64,000 nt of DNA from an uncultured Gammaproteobacteria bacterium (lineage in GTDB: Bacteria > Pseudomonadota > Gammaproteobacteria > Steroidobacterales > Steroidobacteraceae): positions 113,923 to 177,922 of the forward strand of contig CAVOWK010000032.1 of NCBI GenBank assembly GCA_963700045.1. Direction: 5' to 3'. The notes below the pieces were generated by a model, which did not search any database, was not told where the DNA came from, and was given only the letters and a program-made list of their open reading frames with translations. This document shows, in pieces, positions 19,046 through 51,268 of the stretch; the first letter of the stretch is position 1; the number at the start of each line of letters is the position of its first letter. Both the position numbers and the translations under genes were made by a program.

Positions 19046-19070
19046 GGGCTCCTTGCGCGGGCGGGCCCGC

Positions 19071-22000: not shown

Positions 22001-22193
22001 GCCGCAGAAACGCGTCGAGTCCGGTCTTGGCTGCAGGCGCCCTGCGCACGGCCTCGACCAGCTTGCGCGCCGTCGCCTGCACTTCTTCGTGCTGCGCGGG
22101 ATCGAGGCGGGCCATGTCCGCCAGCGAGCGGACCAGCGCCTCCTCGTCACCCAGGAAATCGTCGTTGATCGCCTGACCCACCGGGGTCAGCAA
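19071..22193 (-). pseudogene. putA: bifunctional proline dehydrogenase / P5C dehydrogenase PutA, about 5 frame changes
   Basis: PutA segments sit in alternating frames (TTG start 22193). Junctions are near 21740, 21385, 21158, 20225-20300 and 19995. Together they give about 1040 codons, ending ...VGGNASLLAME. Confidence 0.9.
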
Positions 22194-22353
22194 GTAATGG
22201 ACACGGAAAACAGGAAGCGCGACGATGGCGCCTCGCGATTCGAACCAGACATGGGGGATTCGCCTGCAAAAATGATCCCCAATCGATCCAAAATGCTGAC
22301 GTCCCGCGGGGGTTCCCCCGCCGCGGGACGTGCTGCACTGCGTTAAGAAACGG

Positions 22354-23065: not shown

Positions 23066-23209
23066 GGAGGCTCCTTGCCGGGCTCGAGGCGGAAAAAAAG
23101 GCGCGCGAGTATAGCCGCCCGACCCGTGATTCGCGAAATGCGCCGACCGAGCTCGAACGAGCTTGCATCGGTCTGCGGTGCACGAAGACTTCCCTCTCCC
23201 CGAGCCCGG

Positions 23210-24015: not shown

Positions 24016-24046
24016 TGTCTCCGGTTGCTGGTCGTGGAATACCGCC

Positions 24047-24076
24047 TTGCGCGACTCGCCGCGACCGAAGTATAAA
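24047..24076 (+). promoter_or_regulatory. possible sigma70-type promoter for the small acidic ORF
   Basis: TTGCGC (24047-24052), 18-nt spacer, TATAAA (24071-24076), about 30 nt upstream of ATG 24106. Confidence 0.35.
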
Positions 24077-24105
24077 AACGCGCACCTTGCCCACTGGGTT
24101 TTTCG

Positions 24106-24360
24106 ATGCACGAGAAGCCGGAATCAGCGGACGAGTTCGAGGACGAGGACACCGAGGAAGCCGTCGGGGGCGATGAAGCCCTCGACGTCGATCGCCTCAT
24201 CCAGGACCTCGACAAGCGCAAGCGCGGCGCGCCGAAAGGCGCGGAGCCCGCGTGGCGCAAGCTCGAACGCATGATGGAACAGAAGCGCACGTCGGAGTTG
24301 CTGAGCGACTTCGACGACTACGACGTGGGCGACCGCCCGCGGCCGCGCAGAGGTCAGTGA
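24106..24360 (+). CDS. small acidic hypothetical protein (84 aa)
   Basis: ORF with an acidic N-terminus and a basic/acidic helix ([25 protein letters not shown]). It resembles small PA3496-like proteins, recalled from memory only. Its 3' end overlaps the dnaE2 stop by 7 nt. Confidence 0.45.
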
Positions 24361-27300: not shown

Positions 27301-27521
27301 CAACGCAGGCCGTCCTCGAGACGAAACTCCGCACCGACAATGAGCTTGAGGCCGTGCTCGCGGGCAGCGACATGCGCCCGCACGACGCCGGCCACCGAGC
27401 ACTCGTCGGTGATCGCAAGCGCGGCATACCCGAGCTTCGCCGCGCGCTCGACCAGTTCCTCTGGACGCGAGGCGCCGCGCAGGAAACTGAAGTTGGAAAG
27501 ACAATGCAGTTCGGCGTACAC
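24354..27521 (-). CDS. dnaE2: error-prone DNA polymerase DnaE2 (ImuC)
   Basis: 1055 aa. PHP N-terminus [18 protein letters not shown] and full-length pol III alpha-like similarity, last gene of the imuA-imuB cassette. Confidence 0.95.
27088..27176. repeat. 89-nt G-rich imperfect palindrome in frame inside dnaE2
   Basis: Arms 27088-27117 and 27147-27176 are 27 of 30 nt complementary and are built of GGGGTTA/GGGGATA units. The 29-nt spacer itself folds (GCTGG/CCAGC). It encodes ...[27 protein letters not shown]... Confidence 0.75.
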
Positions 27522-27578
27522 GGCAATCGCGTCGAGCCTGGCTCAGTGCGACGCGCGGCAGGCTGGCGGACCGGCGAG

Positions 27579-29233
27579 TCACGCGAACCAGCCGTGCAGG
27601 AACCAGCGGGCGCCTGCGGTCGTCTCGCGGCGCTTGCGGAACACCCACAACCGGGCGCCCTGCGCATTGCGGGCGATGTAGTAATCACGCGCGACGTCGT
27701 GACCGTCCCACCAGCCGGATTCGATGCACTCGGGGCCTTCTTCGAGAACGAGCCGGTCAACATCGCAGGGCTCGGGCCGGTCGAGCAGCCAGAGCGGCCG
27801 GCCCGTCGCCCGGCCTTGCGGCCGACTCTCCCATCGAAATGGGAGAGGCACGGAGGGGGACTCTCGTTCGGTGCGGCACTGCGTGACGGCGCTTGCTTCC
27901 GTGCCCTGGGTTTCGTCGCCGCCGGCTCGACGGCGCGCCACGCCGCCTCGGGTCGATGCTCGGGCACGCAGGCGAGTCCGTGCACGGCATCGTTGCCGAG
28001 CCGCGCACGCAGCCGCTCGACGAGCTGCGGCAGGTTCCCGCCGGATTCGCGCCGGTCATGCGCAAACAACTCGATCGCATCGGCCTGCAGGTCGATGAGC
28101 GGGCCGCTCAGCAGGCGCACGTTGCGCACGGGTTGCGGCAGCACGAGCTGCGCAAGACGCTCGCGCAGCAGCTCCGCCATGTGCCGCGGCTGCGCACCGA
28201 CCGGCTGCACGAAACGCAACCGCACGCGCGTGACCGGGGCAGCACGATGACGCAGCTGCACTTCGATCGCCTGCACGCCACGGCCACGCTCGCGCAGGAA
28301 CTGGCACAGTTCTTCGAGCAGGGGGGCGAGCGCCAGGCCGAGCCGTGCGGTATCGGCGATTTCGGGTTCGAGGTCGCGCCGCGCGGCAAAGCGTTCGCTT
28401 GCGGCATACGCCGCGCGCGGCTCCTGCACACGACCCGTGGCGCGATCGAGCGTGGCAAGCAGCTCCTGGCCGAAGCGGCGCGCGAAGCCATCGCGCGGCA
28501 GGCGCAGGCAGTCGCCCACGGTGCGCACGCCCATGGTGCCGAGCGTCTCGATGCTGCGTTCGGGCCACCGGGTGCAATCGAGCGGCAGCGGCGCAAGCCG
28601 CGCAGCCAGTTCGTCCCGGTTGCGTACGAACACGGGTCGCGCGCCGAGCGGACCCGCGCGCGCGAACCACAGCGATGCCAGCGGCGACGGCGTGATCGCA
28701 AAGCGAGCCGTCGCGCCCGTGGCATCGGCGAGTTCCTGCTGCAATCGCAGGCACAGCTGCCTGGCGCCGCCAAACAGCCGCAGGCTGCCACGCACCTCGA
28801 GCAGTACGCCGTCGGGCGGCTCGAGGCTGACCCGCGGCGTGAATCGCACGCCGCGCTGCGCCACCGCCTCGAGCAACTGGCGTTCGCGCCGTGCATCGCG
28901 CGCCAGCGCATGCAAGCCCGGCACGAGTGCGAGCGCTGCGTTGATCGACATTCCCTCGCGCACGCCTGCGGCGTGCACGGCTTCTGCGCAGGCGCGCACG
29001 ACCTTGCCGTTGCGCTCGAGGTCGACGATGGCGACAGGCGGACGACCCGGCAGGGCAAGCGCCACGTCGCGCAGCGAATCGAGCAGCAATGACGGCAGGT
29101 GAATGGCGAGCCAGAGTTCACGCGGGCGCGATTGCGCGAGCGGTGTGCGGCCCGGAACGGAAAGCGAAGACGGACGAAATGCCGGCGTGACCCGCACACG
29201 GTGGGGAGACGGGGGCCTGGCGAGCGGAGCCAT
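27579..29233 (-). pseudogene. imuB: Y-family polymerase-like protein ImuB, apparent frameshift in a G5/C5 run at 27855-27859
   Basis: ELWLAIHLPSLLLDSL N-terminus. The true C-terminus (LWLLDRPEP...ESGWWDG...ARDYY...WFLHGWFA) is in the frame of ORF 27579-27941. The long tail of the track ORF overlapping dnaE2 is out of frame. Confidence 0.85.
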
Positions 29234-29234
29234 C

Positions 29235-29942
29235 TCAGTGCCCCAGGTTCACCGTGGCAGGACGGCCTCCGCGGCTTTTGACGATGCGCACCTGCAGGCC
29301 TTCGGTGCCGCCCCCGAGCAGTGCGAGCCGCAACACGGCAGGCGAAGGGGTAAGCCCCGCCTGCAGCGGGCGATACAGCACCGCAAGGCTGCGTGACGCT
29401 TCTGCCGCCAGCTGCAACCGCCGCAAGGCCTGCGGATCGCGGGGATTGAACCAGCCGAGCACGGCGCTGCAAGACTCCGAGCGCAGCGCCTGGTCCATCG
29501 CCCACTCAGTGGCACCTGCGCCGTTGACGACGAGCATGCGCCCGACATCGATGCCCCACGCCGCGAGCGCCGGTGCATACGGGCGATACGGCGGCGAGAC
29601 CCAGGCGATCCAACCCCCGCTGCCCCGGTCATGCGATGGCATGGCAGACCCCGCATGATCGGGGCGCGGTGGCGGATAAATCTCGTCGGCTGCGCCTGCG
29701 TCCCTGCAAAGCGCAGCGAGCGCGGGGAGCAGCAACCGGAGTTCGCCGATGCCCCGCTGATCGGACAGGATTTCGATGAGACCCTGCCGCGGCCAGCCGG
29801 TGCCCGGGAGGCAACGGTCGAGCGCAGCGTAGCCCGTGGGCAGTCCTGAAGGCACGGCCGCAGCCGCGCTACTGCCCGTTTCCCGCGCACGCCACAGACG
29901 CGCGGAATTCTGTTGCAGCAGTTGTTCGACGGAAACGCTCAT
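29235..29942 (-). CDS. imuA: translesion-synthesis protein ImuA (RecA/SulA-like)
   Basis: 235 aa with PTGYAALDRCLPGTGWPRQGLIEIL, positioned between lexA and imuB. Confidence 0.8.
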   Translation of the reverse strand: MSVSVEQLLQQNSARLWRARETGSSAAAAVPSGLPTGYAALDRCLPGTGWPRQGLIEILSDQRGIGELRLLLPALAALCRDAGAADEIYPPPRPDHAGSAMPSHDRGSGGWIAWVSPPYRPYAPALAAWGIDVGRMLVVNGAGATEWAMDQALRSESCSAVLGWFNPRDPQALRRLQLAAEASRSLAVLYRPLQAGLTPSPAVLRLALLGGGTEGLQVRIVKSRGGRPATVNLGH

Positions 29943-29985
29943 GGTCGCTGGTGGATCGCTGGCCAGCAGAAATATCAGGGAGCAG

Positions 29986-42572: not shown

Positions 42573-42788
42573 CTACGAGAACCACGAGTCGTCGGCTTTG
42601 GCCTGCCAGGCGGTGAGCTGCCTCTCAGCTTCGTCCTTGGCCACGCCGTAGCGCTCCTGGATCTTGCCGGCAAGCTGGTCGCGGTGACCAGCGACAACTT
42701 CCAGGTCATCGTCGGTCAACTTCCCCCACTGCACCTTGGCCTTGCCGGCCACTTGCTTCCAGTTTCCTTTGATGCGGTCCCAGTTCAT
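42573..42788 (-). CDS. CsbD family stress-response protein
   Basis: MNWDRIKGNWKQVAGKAKVQWGKLTDDDL..., with a GGAGA RBS before ATG 42788. Confidence 0.85.
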   Translation of the reverse strand: MNWDRIKGNWKQVAGKAKVQWGKLTDDDLEVVAGHRDQLAGKIQERYGVAKDEAERQLTAWQAKADDSWFS

Positions 42789-42853
42789 GGGTTTCTCCTT
42801 TGTCCATGAGCAATCGAAGCTTGCACGTGTCTCCGGCACATTCGGCCTTGAGC

Positions 42854-43846
42854 CTACCGGAGCGTTGAACCGTCACGAGTCATGGCGGCGCTGACCAATG
42901 CTGGCCGGGCACGCCGGCAGGCCTTCGCGCTCAGCAACGCAAAATCCGCCTTTTTCATCAGCGTCTCGGCATCCGTGCCATCGCCGGGATAAACCGCGAT
43001 CCCGACACTCGCCGTCACGCGCAGATCCCGGCCTTCGATGCGGTGCGGCGCGGCGATTCGGGCGCGCAGTGCATCCGCAGCGCATGCCACGTCCTCGGCA
43101 CAGGCCACTTCAGACAGCAGAACGACAAATTCATCGCCACCGAGTCGACTCACGGTGTCCGATTTGCGCACTCCCGCCACCAGTCGACTCGCGACTGACT
43201 GCAGCACCTGGTCGCCGACCGCATGACCCAGTCGATCGTTGATGCGTTTGAAGCGGTCAAGGTCCACGAACAATACGGCCAGCTGGTTGCCATGGCGACA
43301 CGCTGTTGCCATGGCCCGGTCGAGCCGGTCGGTCAGCAGCATCCGGTTGGGCAGGCCCGTCAGAACGTCGTGTTGCGCCAGATGCGACATTCGCAGCGAC
43401 AAAGCGCGCGCCGCACCTACATCGTGAAACACGATCACCGCGCCAGTCACGTTTCCGTGCCGGTCATGAATCGGGGTGGCAGTGTCTTCGATCGCAGATT
43501 CACGCCCATCCCGGCCGATCAGCAGACAGTTCTCGCCCACACCGACACTGGTGTCACGCTGCACCGCCAGGGCCAGCGGATCCCGGGCGGGCTCACGACT
43601 GTCCGCGTCGATGATCCGCATCACTTCCGGCAGTGGTCGGCCGGTCGCCTCCCAGGTGGACCAACCGGTCATGCGCTCGGCGACCGGATTCATGTACGTG
43701 ACGTTGCCCGCCAGGTCGGTGCTCAGAACGGCGTCCCCGATCGAGTCGAGCATCACTTGCGCGCGCTCTCCGGCCACGCGCGATGCTTCGAGGGTGGCGC
43801 CGACACTATTGAAGTTCGCCTGGACAAGCAGTTTCCTGCGGGGCAT
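42854..43846 (-). CDS. PAS-domain diguanylate cyclase (GGDEF)
   Basis: PAS (MLDSIGDAVLSTDLAGNVTYMNPVAERMTGW) followed by an RLGGDEF active site. Confidence 0.9.
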   Translation of the reverse strand: MPRRKLLVQANFNSVGATLEASRVAGERAQVMLDSIGDAVLSTDLAGNVTYMNPVAERMTGWSTWEATGRPLPEVMRIIDADSREPARDPLALAVQRDTSVGVGENCLLIGRDGRESAIEDTATPIHDRHGNVTGAVIVFHDVGAARALSLRMSHLAQHDVLTGLPNRMLLTDRLDRAMATACRHGNQLAVLFVDLDRFKRINDRLGHAVGDQVLQSVASRLVAGVRKSDTVSRLGGDEFVVLLSEVACAEDVACAADALRARIAAPHRIEGRDLRVTASVGIAVYPGDGTDAETLMKKADFALLSAKACRRARPALVSAAMTRDGSTLR

Positions 43847-43854
43847 CAGCGCTC

Positions 43855-44292
43855 TCAGTGGATCGTGGCTACGGCCCGCATGATCCTGCGACCGGCTCTC
43901 ATAGTCTGTGCGCCAGCGGACATTGGGCGGAACGGTTGCGTCGGCGACTGCGTGCGATCCGTGGACCCATGGACAGACCTTCCCGGGTCGTCGACAAACG
44001 CGCGCACGAGCAGCGCGCCGTGCTCATGCAGCACTGGAATACAGACTTTCTGCGCATCCAGGATGCGCAGGAGCGCATTGAGCGGGCGGTCTTTCATAGC
44101 CTGCACGGTGAAGCCCGTGAGGTCGAGCGTCAGGATGGCCCGGCGGTACAGGTACTTGGCATCCAGAGTGTCATGACTGATGGAACCCTCCTGCAGCGCG
44201 AGCAGGTCGCGATAAACCTCTTCCGTCCAACCATTGCAGCTGGCCAGGGCAGCGGGAGTATCCAGCAGCGGAAACGGCAGTTTGTCTTTCAT
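43855..44292 (-). CDS. small hypothetical protein with a class III nucleotidyl-cyclase-like N-terminal motif
   Basis: ATG 44292 with a GGGAG RBS, 17 nt after the cpdA stop. RRAILTLDLTGFT ... EHGALLVRAFVDD resembles the metal-binding beta1/beta4 region of cyclase homology domains, but the domain looks incomplete. Confidence 0.45.
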   Translation of the reverse strand: MKDKLPFPLLDTPAALASCNGWTEEVYRDLLALQEGSISHDTLDAKYLYRRAILTLDLTGFTVQAMKDRPLNALLRILDAQKVCIPVLHEHGALLVRAFVDDPGRSVHGSTDRTQSPTQPFRPMSAGAQTMRAGRRIMRAVATIH

Positions 44293-44309
44293 GTGGGCTC
44301 CCAAGGTCA

Positions 44310-45119
44310 TCAAAAACGGTCGTCGGGCGGCCGTTCGGCCACTTCCCAGTCCTGCAGCCACCGCACTTCCGTCCGCACCTGGCCATCGGGCAGCAGCTCC
44401 AGCCAGCGATATCCCGGCGGCCTGAGGTCCATCACGCAGTGCTCGGTGAGCGGCGTGAATTGCGCGCAGGTCGAAGGCGTCGCGAGCACGAGCGTGTGTC
44501 CGTGCCGCCGCTCGAACGCCTGGTGCACGTGACCACCGAGTACGGCACGCACGGTCGGATACCGCTCGATGACGGCCAGAAACTCACAGGCATTGCGCAA
44601 GCCCACGCCATCGAGCCAGGTGCTGCCGACGGGCAATGGCGGATGATGCAGACACACGAGGAGCGGCCGGTCGCCGAAGGCCTGCAGCGCCGACTCGAGG
44701 CGCAACAGTTCCTTCGATTCGACTCTGCCTTCGGGGCGGCCATGCACGTGCGTGTCGATGAACACCGCACCCCACGCGCCGAATTCAGCCGTGCCGCCGT
44801 ACTGGAACCCATCGCCGCCCACCAGGTCGACCATCAGGTCCGGCTCATCGTGATTGCCGGGCAGGCAGAACACAGGCAGGTCGTACGGACGCAGTGCGCG
44901 GCGGAAATTGTCGTAGGCGGCGGCGCTGTGATCGTCGGCGATGTCGCCAGTCACGAGAATCGCAGCAGGCCGCGGCGTCCCGGGTGCGAAAGCCTCGGCC
45001 AGCACCCTGCGCAACGAGACTGCGGTCGTCACGCCGTAGATTTTCCTCGTCTCATCCCCGAACAGGTGAGGATCGGTGACCTGCAGCAGCCGCACGGAAT
45101 TGCCAAGCGATCCGATCAT
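44310..45119 (-). CDS. cpdA: 3',5'-cyclic-nucleotide phosphodiesterase CpdA (class III, metallophosphoesterase)
   Basis: LLQVTDPHL, GDIADD, GNHD, LHHPP and GHVH motifs. The ATG at 45119 is chosen because upstream residues belong to a GAF domain. Confidence 0.85.
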   Translation of the reverse strand: MIGSLGNSVRLLQVTDPHLFGDETRKIYGVTTAVSLRRVLAEAFAPGTPRPAAILVTGDIADDHSAAAYDNFRRALRPYDLPVFCLPGNHDEPDLMVDLVGGDGFQYGGTAEFGAWGAVFIDTHVHGRPEGRVESKELLRLESALQAFGDRPLLVCLHHPPLPVGSTWLDGVGLRNACEFLAVIERYPTVRAVLGGHVHQAFERRHGHTLVLATPSTCAQFTPLTEHCVMDLRPPGYRWLELLPDGQVRTEVRWLQDWEVAERPPDDRF

Positions 45120-45281
45120 GGCGCGGGCCGGGCGGCCGTCACGCCGATTGAGCAGTTGTGTCACGGCGAACACCGCACCGCTGCTATCCTGCAGGGGCAG
45201 GCACAGCATGGAACGCGTGCGGAAGCCAGTCTCGGCATCGACTGCCTGGTTGAAACGCGGGTCGGCGTAGGCATCGTCGAC

Positions 45282-46355
45282 TCACACCACCTCGCCCGAC
45301 ATTGCCGCAGCGCCCGCGATGCCGCTCGCCAGCGGAATGCGCACATATTCTCCTTCCGGCATGTCCTGCGCGGCGCGCAGCGCGAGCTGCTGGCGCTCGC
45401 GGTCGACCAGGAACAGCGACGCGCGTTCTGCCTCGAGCAGCTCGCCGACCCGGCGCGTAAAGACGCGCAGCGACTGCTCGAGCATGCTCTGGTAGGCCTC
45501 GTCGCTCGCCAGTGCGGTCGCTTCGAGGAACTTCTGCGACTGCTGCGTAAGCTCCTGCAGCGTGCTGCGGAACGCAGTCTCGTCCATCGCATCGACCAGC
45601 TGCTCGATGTGCTGCCGGTCGGTGTTCTGGGCCAGCAGGTGCATCATCTGTTGCGTATTGGCGATGACGGCATCGGTGAAGGTGGCGAGCTTGCCGTCTT
45701 CGAGGTGCACGATTCGATCGGCAACGTCGAGTATGCGGCTGTCGTGCGTGACCAGCAGGATGGTGGTGCCCCGCTCCCGGGCCAGTGCCTGCATGCGATC
45801 GACGACCTCGCGGCCCGAGGCTTTGTCGAGCGACGCGGTAGGCTCGTCTGCGAGCACCATGACCGGCTCGCCGACCAGGGCGCGCGCAATGGCCACGCGC
45901 TGGCGCTGGCCACCGGATAGCTGCTCCGCGCGCTTGTGAGTGTGCTCGCCAAGACCGACTGCCTCCAGCATTGCATCAGCCTTGCGTCGAAGCTCGGCAC
46001 GTGCGGCGCGACCGGTCACGCGCAGGCCGAGCTGCACGTTTTGCGAAGCAGTCAATGCGCCGAGCAGGTTGTGGCTCTGGAAGATGAAGCCGATACGCTT
46101 GCGGACGTCTTCTAGAGCCGTGCGATTTGCGCCGTCGAGCTGGTGACCGAGCACACGCAGGCGCCCCTCCTGTGGTGCACGCAACGCACCGACGAGCGTC
46201 AGCAGTGTCGTCTTGCCAGAACCCGACGGCCCGGTGACGATGACGATCTCGCCAGCGGGAATCGTCGTCGTCACGTCGTGCAGGATCTGCCGACGCAGTG
46301 GGCCCTTGCCGTAAGTAGTGATTGAGGTTCTCGACGACGACCGGCGGGTCCGCAC
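45282..46355 (-). CDS. DevA-type ABC ATP-binding protein with C-terminal linker and the first part of a GAF domain
   Basis: Walker A GPSGSGKTT, LSGGQRQR and LADEPTASLD, then about 120 extra residues ending in GAF-like LFLVDRERQQL...IPLASGIAGAAAMSGEVV before TGA 45282-45284. Confidence 0.8.
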   Translation of the reverse strand: MRTRRSSSRTSITTYGKGPLRRQILHDVTTTIPAGEIVIVTGPSGSGKTTLLTLVGALRAPQEGRLRVLGHQLDGANRTALEDVRKRIGFIFQSHNLLGALTASQNVQLGLRVTGRAARAELRRKADAMLEAVGLGEHTHKRAEQLSGGQRQRVAIARALVGEPVMVLADEPTASLDKASGREVVDRMQALARERGTTILLVTHDSRILDVADRIVHLEDGKLATFTDAVIANTQQMMHLLAQNTDRQHIEQLVDAMDETAFRSTLQELTQQSQKFLEATALASDEAYQSMLEQSLRVFTRRVGELLEAERASLFLVDRERQQLALRAAQDMPEGEYVRIPLASGIAGAAAMSGEVV

Positions 46356-46364
46356 TGCCAGGCA

Positions 46365-47546
46365 TCAGAAGACCTCCGCCGGGTCGAGGCGACGCACCTT
46401 GCGCAGCGCCAGGAAACCGGAGAGCGCGCACATCACGAGCGTCAGCACGAACACCGTGAGTGCCCGATCGGTCGTCAGGTGCAGCGGCAAACGGGTCGCG
46501 TGCGCAGCCGATCGGTAGAGGAACCACGCCGCGGCCATGCCCGGCAGGTAGCCGAGCACGGCGAGTATTGCTGCCTGCTGCAGCACGATGCCGGACACGA
46601 ATCGATTGCGATACCCAATGGCCCGCAGCGTGGCGTACTCACGCAAGTGCTCGGACACGTCGGCGAACAGGATCTGGTAGACGATGATCGCGCCGACCAC
46701 CAAGCCCATGATCGCGCCGAACGCGAACACGTAACCGATCGGCGTCGCCCCGTTCCAGTACGCCTTCTCGCGGGCGGCGAAGTCGGCCTTGGTCATGACC
46801 AGCACGTCCGCGGGCAGGTAGGAGCGCAGGCGATCGCGCGCGGAATTCGCATCGACGCCCGGCTTCAGCGTCACCAGGCCCAGCTGGATCTGGTTGCGCG
46901 ACCGGTCCGGAAACAGCCGCAGCCAGTTGTCGACGCTGGTGAGCACCGTGCCATCGATGCCGAACGAAGGGCCGATCTCGATCAGTCCGACCACCGAGAC
47001 CGCACGATCGTTAATCTCGGTGCTGACCGGCGCATCCGGGCGCCAGCTCTCCCCCACCGGCCCGAATTCCGGCCGCGACGCCCGGTCGAACAACACGACG
47101 TCCTGTGCAGCCAGCCTGGAATAGTTGTCCGCGAAGCCCGGCGTATCGAGCACGTTACGGGTGGGGTCGATGCCGACCGCATTGATGCTGCGGCGGGCGT
47201 TGGTCCACGGGTTCTTCCACGTCGCCGGAAAGACGTAGACCGGGCTCACCGACTCGACGTCGGGTGAACCCATCGCCTCGTACAGGCGGCGGATCGTAAA
47301 CGGCGCCGGCCGCACGATGAAGACACTGTCCGTACTGAAGAGCGCAATGTCGTAGCGGAAACGCTCGTGGAATCGCAACGTGCTCTCGAACAGCGCCGAG
47401 CGAAAGCCGAGCTGCATCAGGATCAGCAGCACGGCGAACGCGATGCCCGCCACCGCGACGGTGAGCCGCAGCGGCTTGTGCCACAGTTGCAACCACCCGA
47501 GCGGGGCGGAGGGCAGCAGCCGGCTCCACGTGCGCTCAACGGCCAA
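46365..47546 (-). CDS. DevC-type ABC exporter permease (FtsX-like)
   Basis: N-terminal LGWLQLWHKPLRLTVAVAGIAFAVLLILMQLGF and C-terminal FtsX helices. Start uncertain (TTG 47546 proposed; the upstream track extension overlaps devB). Confidence 0.75.
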   Translation of the reverse strand: MAVERTWSRLLPSAPLGWLQLWHKPLRLTVAVAGIAFAVLLILMQLGFRSALFESTLRFHERFRYDIALFSTDSVFIVRPAPFTIRRLYEAMGSPDVESVSPVYVFPATWKNPWTNARRSINAVGIDPTRNVLDTPGFADNYSRLAAQDVVLFDRASRPEFGPVGESWRPDAPVSTEINDRAVSVVGLIEIGPSFGIDGTVLTSVDNWLRLFPDRSRNQIQLGLVTLKPGVDANSARDRLRSYLPADVLVMTKADFAAREKAYWNGATPIGYVFAFGAIMGLVVGAIIVYQILFADVSEHLREYATLRAIGYRNRFVSGIVLQQAAILAVLGYLPGMAAAWFLYRSAAHATRLPLHLTTDRALTVFVLTLVMCALSGFLALRKVRRLDPAEVF

Positions 47547-48517
47547 TCTCGACCTCCACCTGGAGGTTCGTGAGGTTCGCAGCCGCGCGGCCGTCGTCGA
47601 GCTTGATCTCGACCTCGACGATGCGCGCATCCTTGCGGGCAACGGGGTCATCACCGATCTGGTCGATCTTCTGCACTTTGGGGCGAATGCGCGTCACGGT
47701 GCCGGTGAGGTCCTGCGGCAGCGCCGGGCTGCGCACCAGCGCGCGCTGGCCGCACTCGCACGCGGCGGACGTCGGCTTCGAAGACCTCTGCGACCGCCTG
47801 CATCTGGTCGACGCGTGCAAGCTCGAGAACACCCTCCATGCCGACGATTTCGCCGGGCCGGCGCCGCACGTCGATGACACGACCGGCGAAGGGAGCGCGG
47901 ACGAACGAGCGCTCGAGTTCCGTCTCGAAGCGCGTCACGCGCGCGGTGGCTGCGCTGATACGCGACTGCGCGACACTGGCCGAGGCACGTCGCGCCTTGC
48001 ACGAAGCCACGCCGGCATCGGCATCGCCCTTGGCTTGCTCGGCGTCCTCGCTCGAGGCGAGTCCGCGGCCCAGCAGGTCCTGCTTGCGCTTCGAGCGCTT
48101 GGCCGCAACGTCGGCAAGCACGCAGGCCTCATCCGCGAGGCTGACGGAGGCGGTGGCATCGCGCTTCGCGGTCTCGAGCTCGGCTTTTGCTTCGACGATG
48201 CGGCTGCGCGCCAGCGCCGCGGTGTCGACCTCGGCCAGCAGTTGACCCGCCGTCACGTCCGAGCCGCGGTCGACCAGCAGTCTGCTCAAGATCGCGCCCG
48301 ACATCGCGTCGGGCGTCGAGGCGGCCGCGACGCGGACGATGCCACCGTACGGTTCGATGCGACCGAGCGCCGCCACTCCCCGCGCGCCAGCAGCCGTCTT
48401 CATGACGGCGTCCGCCCCTGCCGCAGCGGCTCGTGCGGGCTGGCACCCGATCGCCCAGGCAATAATCGTCAGCACAGCCGCACGCGCGGGTCGCCCGATC
48501 CGGATTGAATGCTGCAA
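47536..48517 (-). pseudogene. DevB-type membrane fusion (HlyD family) protein, apparent frameshift near 47765-47772
   Basis: TTG 48517 preceded by AGGGGGGA, then a TM helix, coiled coil and beta-barrel. The C-terminal piece (GQRALVRSPALPQDLTGTV...LQVEVEIGR) is in the frame of ORF 47536-47880. Confidence 0.75.
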
Positions 48518-48560
48518 GTTCCCCCCTGCTTTGCCGGCCCTGCGGCCGAGTAACTTCGAC

Positions 48561-50372
48561 TCAGCCCTGCGGCGACCAACCTTCTGCGATCGCCTTTTGC
48601 GCTTCGCGATATCCGACTTCGACGACGCGGTCGAAGTTGCGCACTTCCGTGAAGCTGAAACCACCCACCGGCGGCCGCACCAGCAAGTCCGCGCGCGCCC
48701 CGGCCGCTCGTGCAGAACCGATCGCGCCGATCGACATCGCCATCAGCATCAACGACACCGGGCTCGGCACGCGATAACGCTTGGAGAGCGGCAGCACACG
48801 ACCGGCGAGCACGCGCCAGGGCGAAGGCACGGAATCGTAATTGACCGTGTAATCCTTGCGCGAACTCAGGTCGACGGCGATCACGCGACCGACGGGACGG
48901 GCCCGCATGAGGTCGACCGGCAGGTTATCGAGGATGCCGCCGTCGACGGACAGTTGGCCGTTGATCACGGCCGGCGGGAAGATACCGGGCAGCGACACGC
49001 TTGCGCGCAACGAGCGCGGCAAGGAGCCCCGATCGTGCACCTGCACACGGCCATTGCCGAGGTTGCTGGAGACGCAGAAGAACGGCACCGGCAGGTCTTC
49101 GATTTCGCCCGGCAAATGGGCATCGATCAGGCGCTCCATGCGTCGTCCGCGCAGGAACGAGATGATCGGCAGGGTCACGTCGCCAAACGGTTTGCCGTCC
49201 ACGAACGCTTTGCGCGCACGCTCGATGACAACCCCTGGCTCCAGTCCCGTCGCCATGCCGGCCGCCATGACGGCGCCGATGCTGGCGCCACCGAGCCAGT
49301 CCACCGGTATGCCGGATTCATACAACGCACGATAGACGCCCAGATGTGCAAACCCGCGAGCGGCGCCACCACCGAGCACGAGCCCGACGGCGCGCCCTGC
49401 GATGACACGGGCGAGGCGGTCGAGGTCGCCCAGGATGCCGGATCGAACGTGCAGGTGAAAATCCAGCTTGCGTGGCGCCAGCCACGCAGCCGTTCCAGAC
49501 AGTGTCTCGCCGTGCTGCTCGTGCCACAGCACCAGGGCACGACGTGCGACGGGGGCATTGGTCTCGTCGAATGCCTGCACTTCCCAGGATCGGGGTGCGG
49601 CATCATCACCGGCCTGCCCGACCAGGAGGATGAGGTCGGCGTTGTGGAGCGCCATGTCGGTAAAGACACCGTCGGCCGGATTCGCCACGTACATGATGAA
49701 GCGATTCTCGTCTTCCTTGACGGCAAGCCAGTCGACCAACGCCGGCGACTGGTCCTGGTGTCGCGCTGCCGGCAAGGCAGGCGCACCCGCGTCGCGCATT
49801 GCCGTGGCGGACAGGACGCAGGTTGGTCCGTACAGCTGCAGCGCCGCGCCGAGTTTCGCCGCAAGGACCTCGGCCGATTGCACCGAACCCAGCGGCACCA
49901 GTGCGATCGTCTTCAGGTTACGACGGATGTGCGAGACGCCGGCGGTCCGATCGCGCAACCGACCAGCGATACCGCCCGCGATGTGGCGCGTGAGATCGGG
50001 CCGCTGCCGGGCGAGCCGATCGAAGGCGGCAGAGGTCATCTTCAGCAACAGGCTGTTGCGCACGGCGCGGATGCTTGCGGATCGCGCCCCGCCGGTGAGC
50101 ATGCCGATTTCGCCGATGGTCTCTCCGGGGTTGACCTCGGCCACGAGCCGTTCGCCGGATTCCTGGCCATTGGATTGTGCCAGCCAGACCTGCATGCGAC
50201 CTCGCGCCAGCAGGAACAGGCAATCGGCTTCGTCACCCTGGCGGAACAGCCAATCGCCACCGCGGCACACGCATGGCTCGAACTCGTCGAGCACCAGCGC
50301 GGCTTCATCCCCGGGAATCGAAAAGTATTGCTGCAACGCCGTGACCAGCGTCGCTCGCGCGGCTGAATTCAT
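48561..50372 (-). CDS. cyclic-nucleotide-binding domain plus patatin-like phospholipase
   Basis: N-terminal CAP-type cNMP domain (GETIGEIGMLTGGARSASIRA), then patatin GGGAARG oxyanion and GASIG nucleophile motifs and a downstream DGG. Confidence 0.88.
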   Translation of the reverse strand: MNSAARATLVTALQQYFSIPGDEAALVLDEFEPCVCRGGDWLFRQGDEADCLFLLARGRMQVWLAQSNGQESGERLVAEVNPGETIGEIGMLTGGARSASIRAVRNSLLLKMTSAAFDRLARQRPDLTRHIAGGIAGRLRDRTAGVSHIRRNLKTIALVPLGSVQSAEVLAAKLGAALQLYGPTCVLSATAMRDAGAPALPAARHQDQSPALVDWLAVKEDENRFIMYVANPADGVFTDMALHNADLILLVGQAGDDAAPRSWEVQAFDETNAPVARRALVLWHEQHGETLSGTAAWLAPRKLDFHLHVRSGILGDLDRLARVIAGRAVGLVLGGGAARGFAHLGVYRALYESGIPVDWLGGASIGAVMAAGMATGLEPGVVIERARKAFVDGKPFGDVTLPIISFLRGRRMERLIDAHLPGEIEDLPVPFFCVSSNLGNGRVQVHDRGSLPRSLRASVSLPGIFPPAVINGQLSVDGGILDNLPVDLMRARPVGRVIAVDLSSRKDYTVNYDSVPSPWRVLAGRVLPLSKRYRVPSPVSLMLMAMSIGAIGSARAAGARADLLVRPPVGGFSFTEVRNFDRVVEVGYREAQKAIAEGWSPQG

Positions 50373-50498
50373 TCCTCGCCCCGAACTCTATAGTCTTTTC
50401 GTTATATCGACCAAGAAGCCAGGCGAGCCGTCCTGGCAGCGCGTTCCCCCTGACGCATCAACCCGGGGAGTCTAGCCGTATTGCGACGTGTCGTCGCG

Positions 50499-50976
50499 TC
50501 AACGGACTCCCGACCTGTGACGGACCTCAGCCAGCAGGCCCTCGACCGCAGATTCGACCAGGTCGAGCACCTCGTCGAATCCCCTGGTGTCGCCGTAATA
50601 GGGGTCGGGCACATCGGTCGGGCGCCGTACTGCCGGCAAACTCGAGCAGCGTGCGAATGCGCTCGCGATGCTCGGGCGGGCTGCGGTCGAGCAAGGTCGC
50701 GTGATTCAGGCGATCCATCGCAACGATCAGGTCGAAGCGCTCGAAATCGTCGTCATGCACCTGCCGTGCCCGCAGGTCCGTGAGGTCGATGCCCCGGCGG
50801 GCGGCAGCGTCGATCGTACGCGGATCGGGCGGCTCACCCACGTGGTATGCGTGAGTGCCGGCGGAGTCGATCTCGATCTCGAGACCCGGGGCGTACCGGC
50901 GAGCGTGCGCCCGGAAAACGCCTTCGGCGGTGGGCGATCGGCATATGTTGCCCATGCAGACGAACAGAATTTTCAT
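50499..50976 (-). pseudogene. low-molecular-weight protein-tyrosine phosphatase, apparent frameshift near 50620-50640
   Basis: MKILFVCMGNICRSPTAEG P-loop. The C-terminal DVPDPYYGDTRGFDEVLDLVESAVEGLL is in another frame, ending at TGA 50499-50501. Confidence 0.8.
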
Positions 50977-51268
50977 CGCGACCACATCCCTGCAACCCAG
51001 TCAATCGATACTGCGGTCAACTTCCGCTCGAAGGTTGAATATTCTCGCCGTGCGAGTGCCTGATATCGAGCAGTGAACGGCAGCACTGAATAGATCGACC
51101 ACCCCGCGCATCTAGCCCGATTTCACGTTCGCTGGTCGGGCGATAGACTGCAAGTCGGACCGTAGATTTTGCAAATGAGCTTTGCCGCACCGCGCTGCCG
51201 TGTGAAGATTGCGCTGCAACAAATCACACGAGGCGACGGCGACAACTGCCGGTCCCTGACCCAGCAAG

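What the first reader, a model, noticed from the sequence alone, without database searches (positions are those of the whole stretch)
42854..50372. Cyclic-nucleotide-themed operon around a DevBCA-type exporter and a patatin lipase
Seen in sequence: seven co-directional minus-strand genes with very short gaps. In order they are a CAP-type cNMP-binding domain fused to a patatin phospholipase (50372-48561), a DevB-type adaptor (48517-47536), a DevC-type permease (47546-46365), a DevA-type ATPase whose C-terminus extends through a helical linker into a GAF domain (46355-45282 and onward), the cAMP phosphodiesterase CpdA (45119-44310), a ~145-aa protein with a class III cyclase-like motif (44292-43855) and a PAS-GGDEF protein (43846-42854). 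The spacings I measured are 43 nt between the patatin stop and devB start, 9 nt between devC stop and devA start, 17 nt between cpdA stop and the small ORF start, and 8 nt between the small ORF stop and the GGDEF start. Established knowledge: DevBCA systems export glycolipids in cyanobacteria, CAP and GAF domains are cyclic-nucleotide sensors, CpdA degrades cAMP, and GGDEF domains make c-di-GMP. Inference: four different cyclic-nucleotide modules wrapped around a lipase and a lipid-type exporter suggest a second-messenger-gated membrane lipid hydrolysis/export module. I know of no characterised DevA ATPase regulated by a fused GAF domain.
Basis: partly seen in the sequence, partly recalled or inferred. 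Interest (0 to 1): 0.8.

Follow-up and report, generated by a model that had tools for sequence, protein, structure and literature searches.

The report
Decaying cyclic-nucleotide-gated lipase/exporter operon
Relatives of this soil bacterium carry a compact gene cluster that pairs its own cyclic-nucleotide maker and breaker with a cyclic-nucleotide-sensing lipase and a sensor-fused export pump, but the copy in this window is a broken, decaying remnant.

Summary
The seven co-directional minus-strand ORFs and nearly all domain calls are real: cNMP_binding–NTE_Ploop–Patatin, DevB, DevC, DevA+GAF, CpdA, a class III cyclase remnant and PAS-GGDEF. devB and devA each carry a +1 frameshift. A TGA sits inside the GAF domain. 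A 95-nt deletion removes the GAF C-terminus and stop codon, running the frame into cpdA. A ~375-nt deletion removes the catalytic half of the cyclase.

Both large deletions recur in an independent 98–99 % identical metagenome contig, which has additionally lost patatin–devBC–devA, so the decay is real. The 1-nt indels may be assembly errors, because the window is riddled with them elsewhere.

Intact relatives encode patatin–DevB–DevC–DevA-GAF (447 aa)–CpdA–cyclase (~215 aa). The DevA-GAF fusion occurs in several bacterial phyla. Its GAF is closest to the cAMP/cGMP-binding GAFs of CyaB2 and PDE2/5/6/10. CAP-domain proteins fused to lipid or membrane enzymes are enriched beside it (20/43 versus 1/42 plain DevA loci).

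The "cNMP-gated lipid hydrolysis/export" idea is therefore supported comparatively but untested. An analogous, uncharacterised cluster exists in M. tuberculosis (Rv2561–Rv2565). This is a new variant of a known kind.

The parts
48561..50372 (-). Intact 603-aa ORF: CAP-type cNMP-binding domain, NTE P-loop-like domain and patatin phospholipase (NTE/PNPLA6-like architecture).
   Evidence: Pfam cNMP_binding 63.3 bits, NTE_Ploop 59.5, Patatin 87.8. Read directly from the sequence: GGGxRG, GASIG (GxSxG), DGG, and the phosphate-binding cassette GEIG..RSA. Same 603-aa length in relatives L084 and L088-L092. dN/dS 0.09 against L084.
47536..48517 (-). devB-type membrane-fusion adaptor, frameshifted by a +1 insertion (C) at about 47752.
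   Evidence: Two frames are needed to read it. The insertion is absent from L001, L084, L088 and L090. The intact homologue scores TIGR02971 187.5 bits against a cut-off of 129.
46365..47546 (-). devC permease (MacB-type, FtsX plus periplasmic core domain), intact at 393 aa.
   Evidence: TIGR01185 464.8 bits against a cut-off of 290. Pfam FtsX and MacB_PCD. The exact sequence is on record from a 326,304-nt NCBI/ENA contig.
45135..46365 (-). Remnant of devA-GAF: DevA-family ABC ATPase, ~80-residue helical linker and a cNMP-type GAF. The true ATG is at 46365. Lesions: +1 (T) at 46314, TGA at 45282-45284, and a 95-nt deletion at the 3' end.
   Evidence: Relatives encode 447 aa (P0001 is 96 % identical) with Arg at the stop position and 35 further C-terminal residues. 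Pfam ABC_tran 115 and GAF 50.8 on the read-through translation. TIGR02982 326 bits against 296 for P0001. Lesions mapped.
45282..45284 (-). In-frame TGA inside the GAF domain. It is CGA (Arg) in L001, and Arg in P0001, P0003, P0005 and the near-identical L087.
45129..45145 (-). Junction of the 95-nt deletion. It removes the GAF C-terminal helix and the devA stop codon, and puts the GAF in frame with cpdA.
   Evidence: The same junction (…GRPARAMIGS…) occurs in the independent contig L087.
44310..45119 (-). cpdA: class III cAMP phosphodiesterase (Metallophos), intact at 269 aa.
   Evidence: NF008359 218.4 bits against a cut-off of 225. Pfam Metallophos 49.4. The motifs DxH, GD, GNHD/E, H and GHxH can be read. 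Relatives also have 269 aa.
43986..44310 (-). N-terminal 108 codons of a 214-220-aa class III nucleotidyl-cyclase homologue ('p220'). The catalytic C-terminal half is deleted.
   Evidence: Translation. Homology to L083, L084 and L001 ends at 43986. The full-length family folds as a class III cyclase: AF2 pLDDT 89.7, Foldseek probability 1.0, TM(target) about 0.8 to Ma1120, Cya2, CyaC and Rv1900c. PDB 3mr7 E=8e-4.
43961..43985 (-). About 25 nt of filler at the junction of the ~375-nt deletion that truncated the cyclase gene.
   Evidence: The same 145-aa truncated product is found in independent JGI, ENA and Logan contigs.
42854..43846 (-). PAS-GGDEF diguanylate cyclase, intact (GGDEF motif and RxxD I-site present). 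It is a lineage-specific neighbour, not part of the conserved module.
   Evidence: Pfam GGDEF 168.8 and PAS 63.1. Present after the cyclase in L083 and L090 with a 185-220-nt gap. Mostly deleted in L084. Absent near the module in other genera.
50527..50985 (-). Low-molecular-weight phosphotyrosine phosphatase upstream, with a +1 insertion at about 50618-50622 that removes the DPYY loop. Probably a separate transcription unit.
   Evidence: Pfam LMWPc matches only profile positions 1-112 of 144. The insertion is absent from L001, L084, L088 and the 99.4 % identical L087. A terminator-like hairpin lies at 50437-50418.

Best explanation
The window holds a degenerating copy of a conserved, self-contained cyclic-nucleotide signalling and effector module.

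Gene order in intact relatives (Steroidobacteraceae-like gammaproteobacteria):
1. cNMP-binding NTE-type patatin lipase.
2. DevB.
3. DevC.
4. DevA ATPase carrying a C-terminal CyaB2/PDE2-type GAF domain.
5. CpdA phosphodiesterase.
6. A ~215-aa minimal class III cyclase.

Proposed working; only the domain identities and the conservation are shown, and everything below is inferred:
- The mini-cyclase makes cAMP, or another cNMP, and CpdA removes it.
- The nucleotide is read twice. One reader is the CAP domain that controls the patatin (lyso)phospholipase.
- The other reader is the GAF domain. Through an ~80-residue helical linker it would control dimerisation and ATPase activity of the DevA nucleotide-binding domains. 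That would gate a MacB-type DevBC(-TolC) tripartite exporter for a lipid or lipid-derived product.

State in this genome:
- The input side is dead. A ~375-nt deletion removed the catalytic half of the cyclase.
- A 95-nt deletion removed the GAF C-terminus and stop codon, fusing the frame to cpdA.
- On top of these come a CGA→TGA stop in the GAF and +1 frameshifts in devB, devA and the upstream LMW phosphatase.
- The frameshifts may be assembly errors. The two deletions are real.
For: Anatomy: Pfam and NCBIfam scores.

Lesions:
- They were mapped against six independent relatives: L001, L083, L084, L088, L090 and L087.
- Both large deletions are shared with the JGI contig L087, which is 98.2-99.4 % identical. 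L087 has in addition lost a 5,030-nt segment (window 45403-50432) carrying patatin, devB, devC and the 5' part of devA.
- The truncated 145-aa cyclase product sits in a cluster of 7 sequences drawn from JGI, ENA, Logan and NCBI.
- Together these show stepwise loss in one lineage.

Intact module: found in at least 12 JGI contigs and in others.

GAF:
- Its best PDB matches are all cNMP-binding GAFs: CyaB2 GAF-A/B (E=1.6e-41), PDE2A GAF-B (1e-25), PDE10A and PDE5/6.
- The stretch GIAG…DAYADPRFN…TGFRTRS…LC.P aligns residue-for-residue with the PDE2A GAF-B stretch [43 protein letters not shown].

Cyclase:
- AF2 pLDDT 89.7, with top Foldseek hits all class III cyclases.
- Invariant D63, D107, N169 and R170 in 35 homologues.
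- JGI names the family 'class 3 adenylate cyclase'.

Linkage:
- The DevA-GAF fusion is found in Gammaproteobacteria, Burkholderiales, Binatia, Myxococcota, Planctomycetota, Acidobacteriota, Chloroflexota and some cyanobacteria.
- cNMP-patatin lies upstream of devBCA in 8 species representatives and downstream in 8 others.
- Within the flanks of 43 fusion loci versus 42 plain DevA loci: CAP-domain ORFs 20 vs 1, patatin 18 vs 0, cpdA 10 vs 1, cyclase 6 vs 0.
- In the Planctomycetota locus L026 the partners are a 2×cNMP_binding–fatty-acid desaturase, a PLD-like phospholipase and two transporter-like membrane proteins with C-terminal cNMP-binding domains.
- No terminator-like site lies inside 42854-50372 on the minus strand. 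Start and stop codons overlap at devC/devA, devA/cpdA and cpdA/cyclase in relatives.
Against: - No experiment supports any step. Ligand identity (cAMP, cGMP or other), the lipase substrate, the transported substrate and the direction of regulation are all unknown.
- The cyclase family has no Pfam or NCBIfam hit, even at E≤10. Its purine-specifying positions are atypical, by my reading: Arg where Lys is usual, and no Asp at the second site. The product could therefore be unusual, or the protein could be inactive.
- cpdA and the cyclase accompany the fusion only in the Steroidobacteraceae/Lysobacterales-like lineages. They are accessories rather than core.
- The enrichment statistic compares phylogenetically different sets, mostly proteobacteria against cyanobacteria, and its members are not independent.
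- The window comes from an assembly full of 1-nt indels. The three +1 frameshifts and possibly the TGA cannot be trusted as biology.
- dN/dS in the retained parts of devA (0.11-0.14) is no higher than between intact relatives (0.085-0.11). Any inactivation is therefore recent.
Confidence: 0.6

Rival explanations
1. The operon is intact and functional in the real organism, and every lesion in the window is a sequencing or assembly artefact of a noisy long-read metagenome assembly.
For: Unrelated housekeeping genes in the same window are split by frameshifts: mlaC, an SDR, sdaA, and putA in at least 6 pieces. Window 16060-29954 against relative L086 shows 83 gap openings in 14 kb, nearly all of 1 nt, and they break different genes in each assembly. 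The +1 in the LMW phosphatase is absent from the 99.4 % identical L087, and L087 has Arg where the window has TGA. dN/dS is not elevated.
Against: The 95-nt and ~375-nt deletions, with identical junctions, occur in the independent JGI contig L087 and in a second JGI/NCBI contig. The 145-aa truncated product is found in 7 sequences from several sources. No gap of 20 nt or more occurs in the 14-kb comparison with L086, so large deletions are not this assembly's usual error type.
Confidence: 0.1
2. The genes are neighbours with only loose or no functional coupling. The GAF senses some other small molecule, or merely dimerises. The patatin, CpdA and cyclase belong to general cellular cAMP signalling rather than to a dedicated exporter circuit.
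For: GAF domains bind many ligands. cpdA and the cyclase are adjacent only in one group of lineages. L002 (GCA_041320355.1) keeps devC–devA-GAF–cpdA without an adjacent cNMP-patatin. Many distant fusion loci show no CAP-domain neighbour within the flanks.
Against: The GAF's solved relatives down to E≈1e-8 are, apart from one GAF-containing metal-dependent phosphohydrolase (4mcw), all cAMP/cGMP-binding GAFs, with the pocket stretch conserved. cNMP-patatin is adjacent in two different gene orders. CAP-domain lipid or membrane enzymes recur next to the fusion in Planctomycetota and other phyla. In the window's lineage the cyclase and the GAF were hit first, followed by deletion of lipase plus exporter as one block.
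Confidence: 0.2
3. It is an anti-phage abortive-infection system of the Pycsar/CBASS type. A cyclase makes a nucleotide signal on infection, and that signal activates a cNMP-binding patatin effector which destroys the membrane.
For: The logic of a cyclase plus a CAP-domain effector matches Pycsar, and patatin effectors (CapV) are known from CBASS. The patatin's CAP domain hits PADLOC Pycsar effector models (PycTIR 2.1e-15; TIR effector 1.7e-16) and PDB PycTIR 8jsj (1.4e-7).
Against: The cyclase has no PADLOC hit at E≤0.01. The PADLOC hits cover only the generic CAP domain. The locus is syntenic with the same housekeeping-type flanks (Aldedh, ADP-ribosylglycohydrolase, 861-aa protein, LMWPc) across relatives at 85-99 % identity, unlike a mobile defence island. 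The cluster includes its own phosphodiesterase and a three-component exporter. The NTE_Ploop architecture is that of NTE-family lipases.
Confidence: 0.05

Closest known systems
DevBCA–HgdD (TolC) heterocyst glycolipid exporter of Anabaena/Nostoc
   Same: All three subunits pass the NCBIfam DevA, DevB and DevC family models. The gene order devB-devC-devA is the same, and so is the MacB-type (type VII ABC) architecture with a periplasmic adaptor.
   Different: Cyanobacterial DevA is about 220-240 aa with no sensor domain; the plain DevA loci L040-L082 match only residues 1 to about 230. Here a ~220-aa linker plus GAF is appended. No glycolipid-synthesis genes were seen nearby. The host is a non-heterocystous proteobacterium, and the substrate is unknown.
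Mycobacterium tuberculosis Rv2561/62–Rv2563–Rv2564–Rv2565 cluster (predicted, uncharacterised)
   Same: The parts list matches: a divergent class III cyclase-like protein (DUF2652), a MacB-type permease, an ABC ATPase fused to a cyclic-nucleotide-binding domain, and a neighbouring cNMP-binding-domain protein (Rv2565) (PMC4886424 table; PMC7761784). From my own knowledge, Rv2565 is an NTE/patatin-type esterase.
   Different: The sensor on the mycobacterial ATPase is a CAP-type cNMP_binding domain (PF00027), not a GAF. The cyclase-like protein belongs to a different family; p220 gives no Pfam hit at all. There is no DevB adaptor and no CpdA in that description. I could not compare the sequences directly.
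cNMP-binding GAF domains of Anabaena CyaB1/CyaB2 adenylate cyclases and mammalian PDE2, PDE5, PDE6, PDE10
   Same: These are the best sequence matches among solved structures: 1ykd E=1.6e-41, 1mc0 1.2e-25, 2zmf 3.3e-21. The helical lead-in and the GIAG…DAY.DP.F…TGFRTR…LC.P stretch are shared.
   Different: In those proteins GAFs sit N-terminal to a cyclase or phosphodiesterase catalytic domain, often in tandem. Here a single GAF sits C-terminal to an ABC nucleotide-binding domain. Ligand specificity is not established.
Neuropathy target esterase / PNPLA6 / Swiss-cheese family
   Same: The architecture is cNMP-binding domain(s), then the NTE P-loop-like domain, then a patatin esterase, with the catalytic GxSxG and DGG present.
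   Different: The bacterial protein has a single CAP domain and no transmembrane anchor was noted. It is encoded next to an exporter. Whether cNMP binds is unresolved, even for the eukaryotic proteins (my own knowledge).
ABC transporters regulated through C-terminal ligand-binding domains on the ATPase (MetN C2 domain, ModC, MalK)
   Same: The principle is the same: a small-molecule-binding domain appended to the C-terminus of the nucleotide-binding domain could hold the two ATPase domains apart or together (my own knowledge of these systems).
   Different: Those are importers sensing their own substrate (trans-inhibition). Here the transporter is a MacB-type exporter, and the appended domain belongs to a second-messenger-binding family.
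Pycsar / CBASS anti-phage signalling systems
   Same: A nucleotide cyclase is paired with an effector activated by the nucleotide. The effector has a CAP-type sensor (Pycsar) or is a patatin lipase (CBASS CapV). The CAP domain is weakly similar to PycTIR.
   Different: The cyclase matches no PADLOC model. A phosphodiesterase and a tripartite exporter are part of the cluster. The chromosomal context is stable and syntenic rather than a defence island.

Membership tests
DevBCA-type ABC exporter | Permease matches the DevC equivalog model TIGR01185 | tested here: met
   Window 46365-47546: 464.8 bits against a cut-off of 290.35.
DevBCA-type ABC exporter | Adaptor matches the DevB family model TIGR02971 and is an intact ORF | tested here: inconclusive
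   The intact homologue (L001) scores 187.5 against 129. The window copy needs a frame change at about 47752, which could be a mutation or an assembly error.
DevBCA-type ABC exporter | ATPase matches the DevA family model TIGR02982 and is an intact ORF | tested here: inconclusive
   P0001 (96 % identical) scores 326.1 against 295.8. The window copy has a +1 at 46314, a TGA at 45282 and a 95-nt 3' deletion.
DevBCA-type ABC exporter | Works with a TolC-type outer-membrane factor and exports glycolipid | not testable with these tools
   No outer-membrane-factor gene or glycolipid-synthesis genes were noted in the cluster. The substrate is unknown.
cNMP-binding GAF subfamily (CyaB/PDE type) | Closest sequence relatives are the cAMP/cGMP-binding GAFs, with the binding-pocket stretch conserved | tested here: met
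   For the intact homologue: 1ykd E=1.6e-41, 1mc0, 2zmf, 3lfv and 6mzb, with alignments.
cNMP-binding GAF subfamily (CyaB/PDE type) | Complete GAF fold encoded in this window | tested here: not met
   A TGA interrupts the domain, and its last ~35 residues are deleted.
cNMP-binding GAF subfamily (CyaB/PDE type) | Binds cAMP or cGMP | not testable with these tools
   Needs binding assays. The AF2 model of DevA-GAF was too poor to inspect the pocket (pLDDT 59).
NTE-type patatin lipase | cNMP_binding + NTE_Ploop + Patatin architecture with catalytic Ser and Asp | tested here: met
   All three Pfam domains score above their cut-offs. GASIG and DGG can be read.
CpdA (class III cAMP phosphodiesterase) | Matches NF008359 above its cut-off | tested here: inconclusive
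   218.4 bits against a cut-off of 225, E=1.2e-64, covering model positions 12-265 of 275.
CpdA (class III cAMP phosphodiesterase) | Metallophosphoesterase metal-binding motifs | tested here: met
   DPH, GD, GNHDE, HH and GHVH are present in the 269-aa ORF. Pfam Metallophos 49.4.
Class III nucleotidyl cyclase | Cyclase-homology-domain fold | tested here: met
   For the full-length homologue P0271: AF2 pLDDT 89.7, Foldseek probability 1.0 and TM(target) up to 0.81 to Ma1120, Cya2, CyaC, Rv1625c and Rv1900c.
Class III nucleotidyl cyclase | Matches the Pfam/NCBIfam cyclase models | tested here: not met
   No Pfam hit at E≤10 and no NCBIfam hit. The only sequence link is PDB 3mr7 at E=8e-4.
Class III nucleotidyl cyclase | Two metal-binding Asp plus transition-state Asn/Arg present | tested here: met
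   D63, D107, N169 and R170 are invariant in 35 homologues. The assignment to catalytic roles is my reading of the 3mr7 alignment.
Class III nucleotidyl cyclase | Complete catalytic domain encoded in this window | tested here: not met
   Only codons 1-108 remain. N169 and R170 are deleted.
GGDEF diguanylate cyclase | GGDEF domain with an intact active-site motif | tested here: met
   PF00990 168.8 bits. RLGGDEF and the upstream RKSD (RxxD) can be read.
Pycsar/CBASS defence system | Cyclase matches a defence-system cyclase model | tested here: not met
   PADLOC gives no hit for the cyclase at E≤0.01.

The most novel reading that the evidence does not exclude
DevA-GAF defines a widespread, multi-phylum class of MacB-type tripartite exporters whose ATPase is switched directly by cAMP or cGMP through a C-terminal CyaB2/PDE-type GAF domain. 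In gammaproteobacteria it would form, with a dedicated mini-cyclase, CpdA and a CAP-domain NTE-type lipase, an autonomous second-messenger circuit for membrane-lipid remodelling and export. That would be a CRP-independent output of bacterial cAMP signalling. The stepwise loss seen in this lineage (cyclase and GAF first, then lipase and pump as one block) would be the footprint of that coupling.
Probability: 0.35. Interest if true: 0.7.

Novelty: new variant of a known kind. Interest (0 to 1): 0.5.

Why it matters
Few bacterial cAMP or cGMP effectors other than CRP-family transcription factors are understood. Direct second-messenger control of an ABC exporter has, as far as I could find, been predicted (M. 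tuberculosis Rv2564) but not demonstrated.

The DevA-GAF family is abundant. Thousands of metagenomic homologues were scored, the best 120 of which all carry GAF, and the fusion is present in several bacterial phyla. Its partners give concrete hypotheses: an NTE-type lipase, a cNMP-binding desaturase, a PLD-like phospholipase, CpdA and a previously unmodelled mini-cyclase family. They point to cNMP-controlled lipid hydrolysis, remodelling and export that could be tested with a handful of purified proteins.

For this particular window the practical message differs. The copy is a pseudogenising remnant inside an indel-rich assembly, so it should not be annotated as a functional operon. Intact relatives such as L088, L090 and L001 are the ones to study.

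Tried and rejected
- Exact-sequence look-ups of the patatin and GGDEF proteins found nothing. The later cluster look-up succeeded and showed the source is a 326-kb NCBI/ENA contig.
- The 1.84-billion-representative search with the linker plus half-GAF returned 464 hits at E≤0.001. They were mostly fragments and generic multi-GAF proteins, and the search did not give a useful family size.
- The AlphaFold model of DevA-GAF was too poor to use (pLDDT 59, pTM 0.39). Only its secondary structure is cited: a helical linker at about residues 229-309 followed by a β-rich GAF.
- Pfam and NCBIfam give nothing for the cyclase family, even at E≤10. It is therefore not a DUF2652 member by that test.
- PADLOC does not support a defence-system reading.
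- The promoter scan found no σ70-like site. The only terminator-like site on the minus strand lies upstream of the patatin gene.
- Literature searches for DevBCA plus GAF, for a GAF-fused ABC ATPase, and for Steroidobacter with cAMP and patatin returned nothing relevant.
- My first whole-gene dN/dS run was distorted by forcing alignments across the deletions. I redid it on the homologous parts only (where the script stopped before the last comparisons).
- My greedy longest-ORF gene maps of distant loci were unreliable at this G+C content. I replaced them with homology-anchored maps.
- I considered programmed read-through or selenocysteine at the TGA and rejected it. Relatives have plain CGA (Arg), including the near-identical L087.
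- I considered that the p220/GGDEF junction was a rearrangement bringing in a foreign gene and rejected it. L083 and L090 show the GGDEF gene is the native downstream neighbour.

Full report
**1. What is in the sequence**

The domain calls hold.

- ORF 48561-50372 (603 aa) has cNMP_binding, NTE_Ploop and Patatin domains. A canonical phosphate-binding cassette and the catalytic GxSxG and DGG motifs are readable in the translation.
- ORF 46365-47546 is a DevC permease: TIGR01185 at 465 bits against a cut-off of 290.
- ORF 44310-45119 is a CpdA-like metallophosphoesterase. NF008359 scores 218.4, just under its cut-off of 225, and all metal-binding motifs are present.
- ORF 42854-43846 is a PAS-GGDEF protein with an intact GGDEF motif and I-site.

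**2.

- devB, as given (48517-47536), is 982 nt and needs two reading frames.
- The GTG at 46355 is not the devA start. The true ATG at 46365 overlaps the devC stop by one base, reads MPGSADPPVVVENLNHY, and then falls out of frame.
- Translating 46355-44310 straight through gives one 682-codon frame with a single internal TGA at 45282-45284, in the middle of the GAF domain. There is no stop between the GAF and cpdA.
- Homologues up to 96 % identical are 447-aa DevA–linker–GAF proteins. They have Arg at the TGA position and 35 further C-terminal residues that the window lacks.

DNA alignments to relatives L001 (86.6 % nt), L083 (92-94 %), L084 (~91 %), and L088 and L090 (~89-90 %) localise the lesions:

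| Lesion | Position | Effect |
|---|---|---|
| +1 (C) | ~47752 | devB frameshift |
| +1 (T) | 46314 | devA frameshift |
| CGA→TGA | 45282-45284 | stop inside the GAF |
| 95-nt deletion | ~45129-45145 | removes the GAF C-terminus and stop; frame runs into cpdA |
| ~375-nt deletion with ~25-nt filler | 43961-43985 | removes the 3' half of the gene after cpdA |
| +1 | ~50618-50622 | frameshift in the upstream LMW phosphatase |

The '~145-aa protein with a cyclase-like motif' is therefore the first 108 codons of a 214-220-aa gene plus out-of-frame sequence. Its 8-nt spacing to the GGDEF gene is a by-product of the deletion.

**3. Are the lesions real?**

The window is full of single-base indels elsewhere.

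- mlaC, a short-chain dehydrogenase and sdaA are each split, and putA is in at least six pieces.
- Against the 93.7 % identical contig L086, 14 kb of the window shows 83 gap openings. Almost all are 1 nt, and they break different genes in the two assemblies.
- That is the signature of noisy long-read assemblies, so the three +1 insertions cannot be trusted as mutations. The TGA is likewise unverified.
- The +1 in the phosphatase and the TGA are indeed absent from the near-identical contig L087.

The two large deletions are a different matter.

- No gap of 20 nt or more occurs in the 14-kb comparison with L086.
- The exact-sequence look-up showed that the window's truncated 145-aa product belongs to a cluster of seven sequences from JGI, ENA, Logan and NCBI.
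- JGI contig L087 is 99.4 % identical upstream and 98.2 % identical downstream. It carries the same 95-nt junction (…GRPARAMIGS…) and the same truncated cyclase.
- L087 has also lost a further 5,030-nt segment (window 45403-50432). That segment holds patatin, devB, devC and the 5' two-thirds of devA-GAF.
- A second JGI/NCBI contig has the same gene pattern.

So one natural lineage is losing this module stepwise. The cyclase and the GAF C-terminus went first. After that, either point lesions accumulated (this window) or the lipase and pump were deleted as a block (L087). dN/dS in the retained parts of devA (0.11-0.14) is no higher than between intact relatives (0.085-0.11), so the inactivation is recent.

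**4. The intact module in relatives**

At least a dozen JGI contigs, and several ENA contigs, encode the following in one direction, with overlapping or nearly abutting starts and stops:

1. (LMW phosphatase)
2. cNMP-NTE-patatin (603-627 aa)
3. DevB (~298-326 aa)
4. DevC (393 aa)
5. DevA-GAF (447 aa)
6. CpdA (269-273 aa)
7. a 214-220-aa protein ('p220')

The PAS-GGDEF and CsbD genes follow after a 185-220-nt gap in L083 and L090. The GGDEF gene is largely deleted in L084 and is not seen near the module in other genera. I treat it as a lineage-specific neighbour.

A terminator-like hairpin lies between the phosphatase and the patatin gene (50437-50418). No other terminator-like site lies on the minus strand within the cluster.

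**5. The 214-220-aa protein is a class III cyclase homologue**

- It has no Pfam, NCBIfam or PADLOC hit.
- It does match the cyclase 3mr7 in the PDB (E=8e-4).
- JGI annotates many of its 679 homologues as 'class 3 adenylate cyclase'.
- An AlphaFold model built on 35 homologues is confident (pLDDT 89.7).
- The best Foldseek matches to that model are class III cyclase catalytic domains, at probability 1.0 and TM(target) up to 0.81. They include Ma1120, Cya2, CyaC, Rv1625c and Rv1900c.
- D63, D107, N169 and R170 are invariant in the alignment. By my reading these are the two metal-binding aspartates and the transition-state Asn with a neighbouring conserved Arg (R170); the canonical transition-state Arg position (+4 from the Asn) holds Lys or Arg.
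- The purine-specifying positions look atypical, so the product is not certain.

**6. The GAF domain is of the cyclic-nucleotide-binding kind**

- Searching the linker plus GAF against all PDB sequences gives 23 hits.
- The strong hits are almost all cAMP- or cGMP-binding GAFs: Anabaena CyaB2 GAF-A/B (1ykd, E=1.6e-41), PDE2A GAF-B (1.2e-25), PDE10A GAF-B (3.3e-21), PDE5 and PDE6. The one exception is a GAF-containing metal-dependent phosphohydrolase (4mcw, 4.5e-21).
- Non-cNMP GAFs appear only near E≈1e-4.
- The aligned stretch GIAG…DAYADPRFN…TGFRTRS…LC.P is nearly identical to that of PDE2A GAF-B.
- Whether the ligand is cAMP or cGMP cannot be decided here. The adjacent CpdA-family enzyme favours cAMP by association only.

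**7. Distribution and linkage**

A scan of one genome per species found full-length DevA-GAF fusions in many groups:

- Gammaproteobacteria: Steroidobacteraceae, Lysobacterales, Wenzhouxiangella, Arenimonas, Pseudomonadales and Chromatiales.
- Burkholderiales, Candidatus Binatia, Myxococcota and Planctomycetota.
- Acidobacteriota, Chloroflexota and a few cyanobacteria.

Classical cyanobacterial DevA proteins match only the ATPase part.

- Homology-anchored maps show the cNMP-patatin gene directly upstream of devB in eight species representatives. It lies directly downstream of devA-GAF in eight others.
- Two different arrangements of the same partners argue for functional linkage.
- ORFs found within the flanks of 43 fusion loci (553 kb) and 42 plain DevA loci (738 kb):

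| Neighbour | Fusion loci | Plain DevA loci |
|---|---|---|
| CAP-domain ORF | 20 | 1 |
| patatin | 18 | 0 |
| cpdA | 10 | 1 |
| cyclase | 6 | 0 |

- These sets differ in phylogeny and their members are not independent, so the contrast is indicative only.
- In the Planctomycetota locus L026 the neighbours are a 2×cNMP_binding–fatty-acid desaturase, a PLD-like phospholipase and two transporter-like membrane proteins with C-terminal CAP domains.
- In L023 the neighbour is a CAP-domain polytopic membrane protein.
- The recurring theme is CAP-domain-controlled lipid or membrane proteins beside a GAF-carrying DevBCA pump.

**8. Most likely mechanism (inferred)**

- The mini-cyclase and CpdA set a local cNMP level.
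- The nucleotide activates the NTE-type lipase through its CAP domain.
- Through the GAF, connected by a ~80-residue helical linker (secondary structure only), it also modulates closure of the DevA nucleotide-binding domains.
- That would gate export by the MacB-type DevBC complex of a lipid or lipid-derived product.
- The domain identities and the conservation are shown. Ligand, substrate, direction of regulation and co-transcription are not.

**9. Comparison with what is known**

- The pump is a member of the DevBCA family by the NCBIfam models, but differs from the characterised cyanobacterial system by the appended sensor.
- Regulation of ABC ATPases through C-terminal ligand-binding domains is known for the importers MetN, ModC and MalK (my own knowledge).
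- The closest parallel is an uncharacterised M. tuberculosis cluster: Rv2561/62 (a DUF2652 cyclase-like protein), Rv2563 (a MacB-type permease), Rv2564 (an ABC ATPase) and Rv2565. Both Rv2564 and Rv2565 are listed with a PF00027 cNMP-binding domain (PMC4886424; PMC7761784).
- The present family swaps the CAP sensor on the ATPase for a GAF and adds DevB and CpdA.
- I found no paper describing a GAF-fused DevA or ABC exporter ATPase.
- A Pycsar/CBASS-type defence reading is unlikely. The cyclase has no PADLOC match, and the context is stable and syntenic.

**10. Verdict**

Comparative evidence backs a cNMP-themed lipase and exporter module, but this copy is a decaying remnant, the GGDEF gene is peripheral, and a conceptual precedent exists.
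- Novelty: a new variant of a known kind.
- Interest: moderate (0.5). The family deserves experiments in intact relatives. The window's copy should be annotated as pseudogenes, with the caveat that its 1-nt frameshifts may be assembly errors.

Noticed in passing
window 6686-7437, 16945-17763, 17672-18876, 19071-22385 (all minus strand): Unrelated genes are split by frameshifts. mlaC is in two pieces, a short-chain dehydrogenase in two, sdaA (serine dehydratase β/α) in two, and putA in at least six. Against relative L086, 14 kb shows 83 mostly 1-nt gaps that break different genes in each assembly. The window looks like a noisy long-read metagenome assembly.
   Followed up: partly
L087 (JGI 3300027885, Ga0209450_10023726), junction equivalent to window 50433|45402: A contig 98-99 % identical to the window has a 5,030-nt deletion removing patatin, devB, devC and most of devA-GAF. 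It shares the window's 95-nt and ~375-nt deletions. What remains is a 350-aa partial-GAF–CpdA ORF directly after the LMW phosphatase.
   Followed up: yes
window 44310-46365 minus strand: The 95-nt deletion on its own would create a single in-frame DevA–linker–GAF(ΔC)–CpdA reading frame of about 681 codons. That ABC–GAF–phosphodiesterase fusion recalls the GAF–PDE order of mammalian PDEs. In the window it is broken by the TGA and the 5' frameshift. Whether the ancestral fused allele was ever functional is unknown.
   Followed up: no
L084 11278-11796 (ENA ERZ27247859 k141_61787): In this otherwise intact relative the PAS-GGDEF gene downstream of the cyclase is reduced to a 64-aa PAS fragment by two internal deletions. 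Different members of the clade are losing different genes of this neighbourhood.
   Followed up: partly
L026 2629-13842 (Planctomycetota MAG JBCCGH010000152.1): devB–devA(GAF)–devC is flanked by a 2×cNMP_binding–fatty-acid-desaturase fusion (6127-8697) and a PLD-like phospholipase (12547-13842). Two transporter-like polytopic membrane proteins with C-terminal cNMP-binding domains also lie nearby. This is a second, independent cNMP-plus-lipid-enzyme context for the fusion.
   Followed up: partly
L023 392-1594 (unclassified bacterium MAG JAUIEL010000488.1): A CAP-type cNMP-binding domain fused to a polytopic membrane protein lies just upstream of devB and devA-GAF. devC is on the opposite strand.
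   Followed up: no
L002 (GCA_041320355.1, JBGLNY010000001.1) 8453-12087: This 5.9-Mb assembly keeps devC–devA-GAF–cpdA. Only the C-terminal third of devB is called, and a 3β-HSD/epimerase-like gene sits where the cNMP-patatin gene lies in other relatives. A separate patatin gene without a CAP domain lies 2 kb upstream on the other strand.
   Followed up: no
L014, L015, L020, L064 (MAG contigs from the species-representative scan): devC, patatin, the GAF or devB/devA appear split into two adjacent ORF pieces in these MAGs. This probably reflects the same kind of long-read indel error, so split genes in this family should not be read as pseudogenes without read support.
   Followed up: no
window 50418-50437 minus strand: This is the only terminator-like hairpin on the operon strand. 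It lies between the LMW phosphatase and the patatin gene and coincides with the upstream breakpoint of the 5-kb deletion seen in L087.
   Followed up: no
window 42573-42839 minus strand: An 88-aa CsbD-family stress protein gene follows the GGDEF gene. It is conserved in that position in L083, L084 and L090.
   Followed up: no
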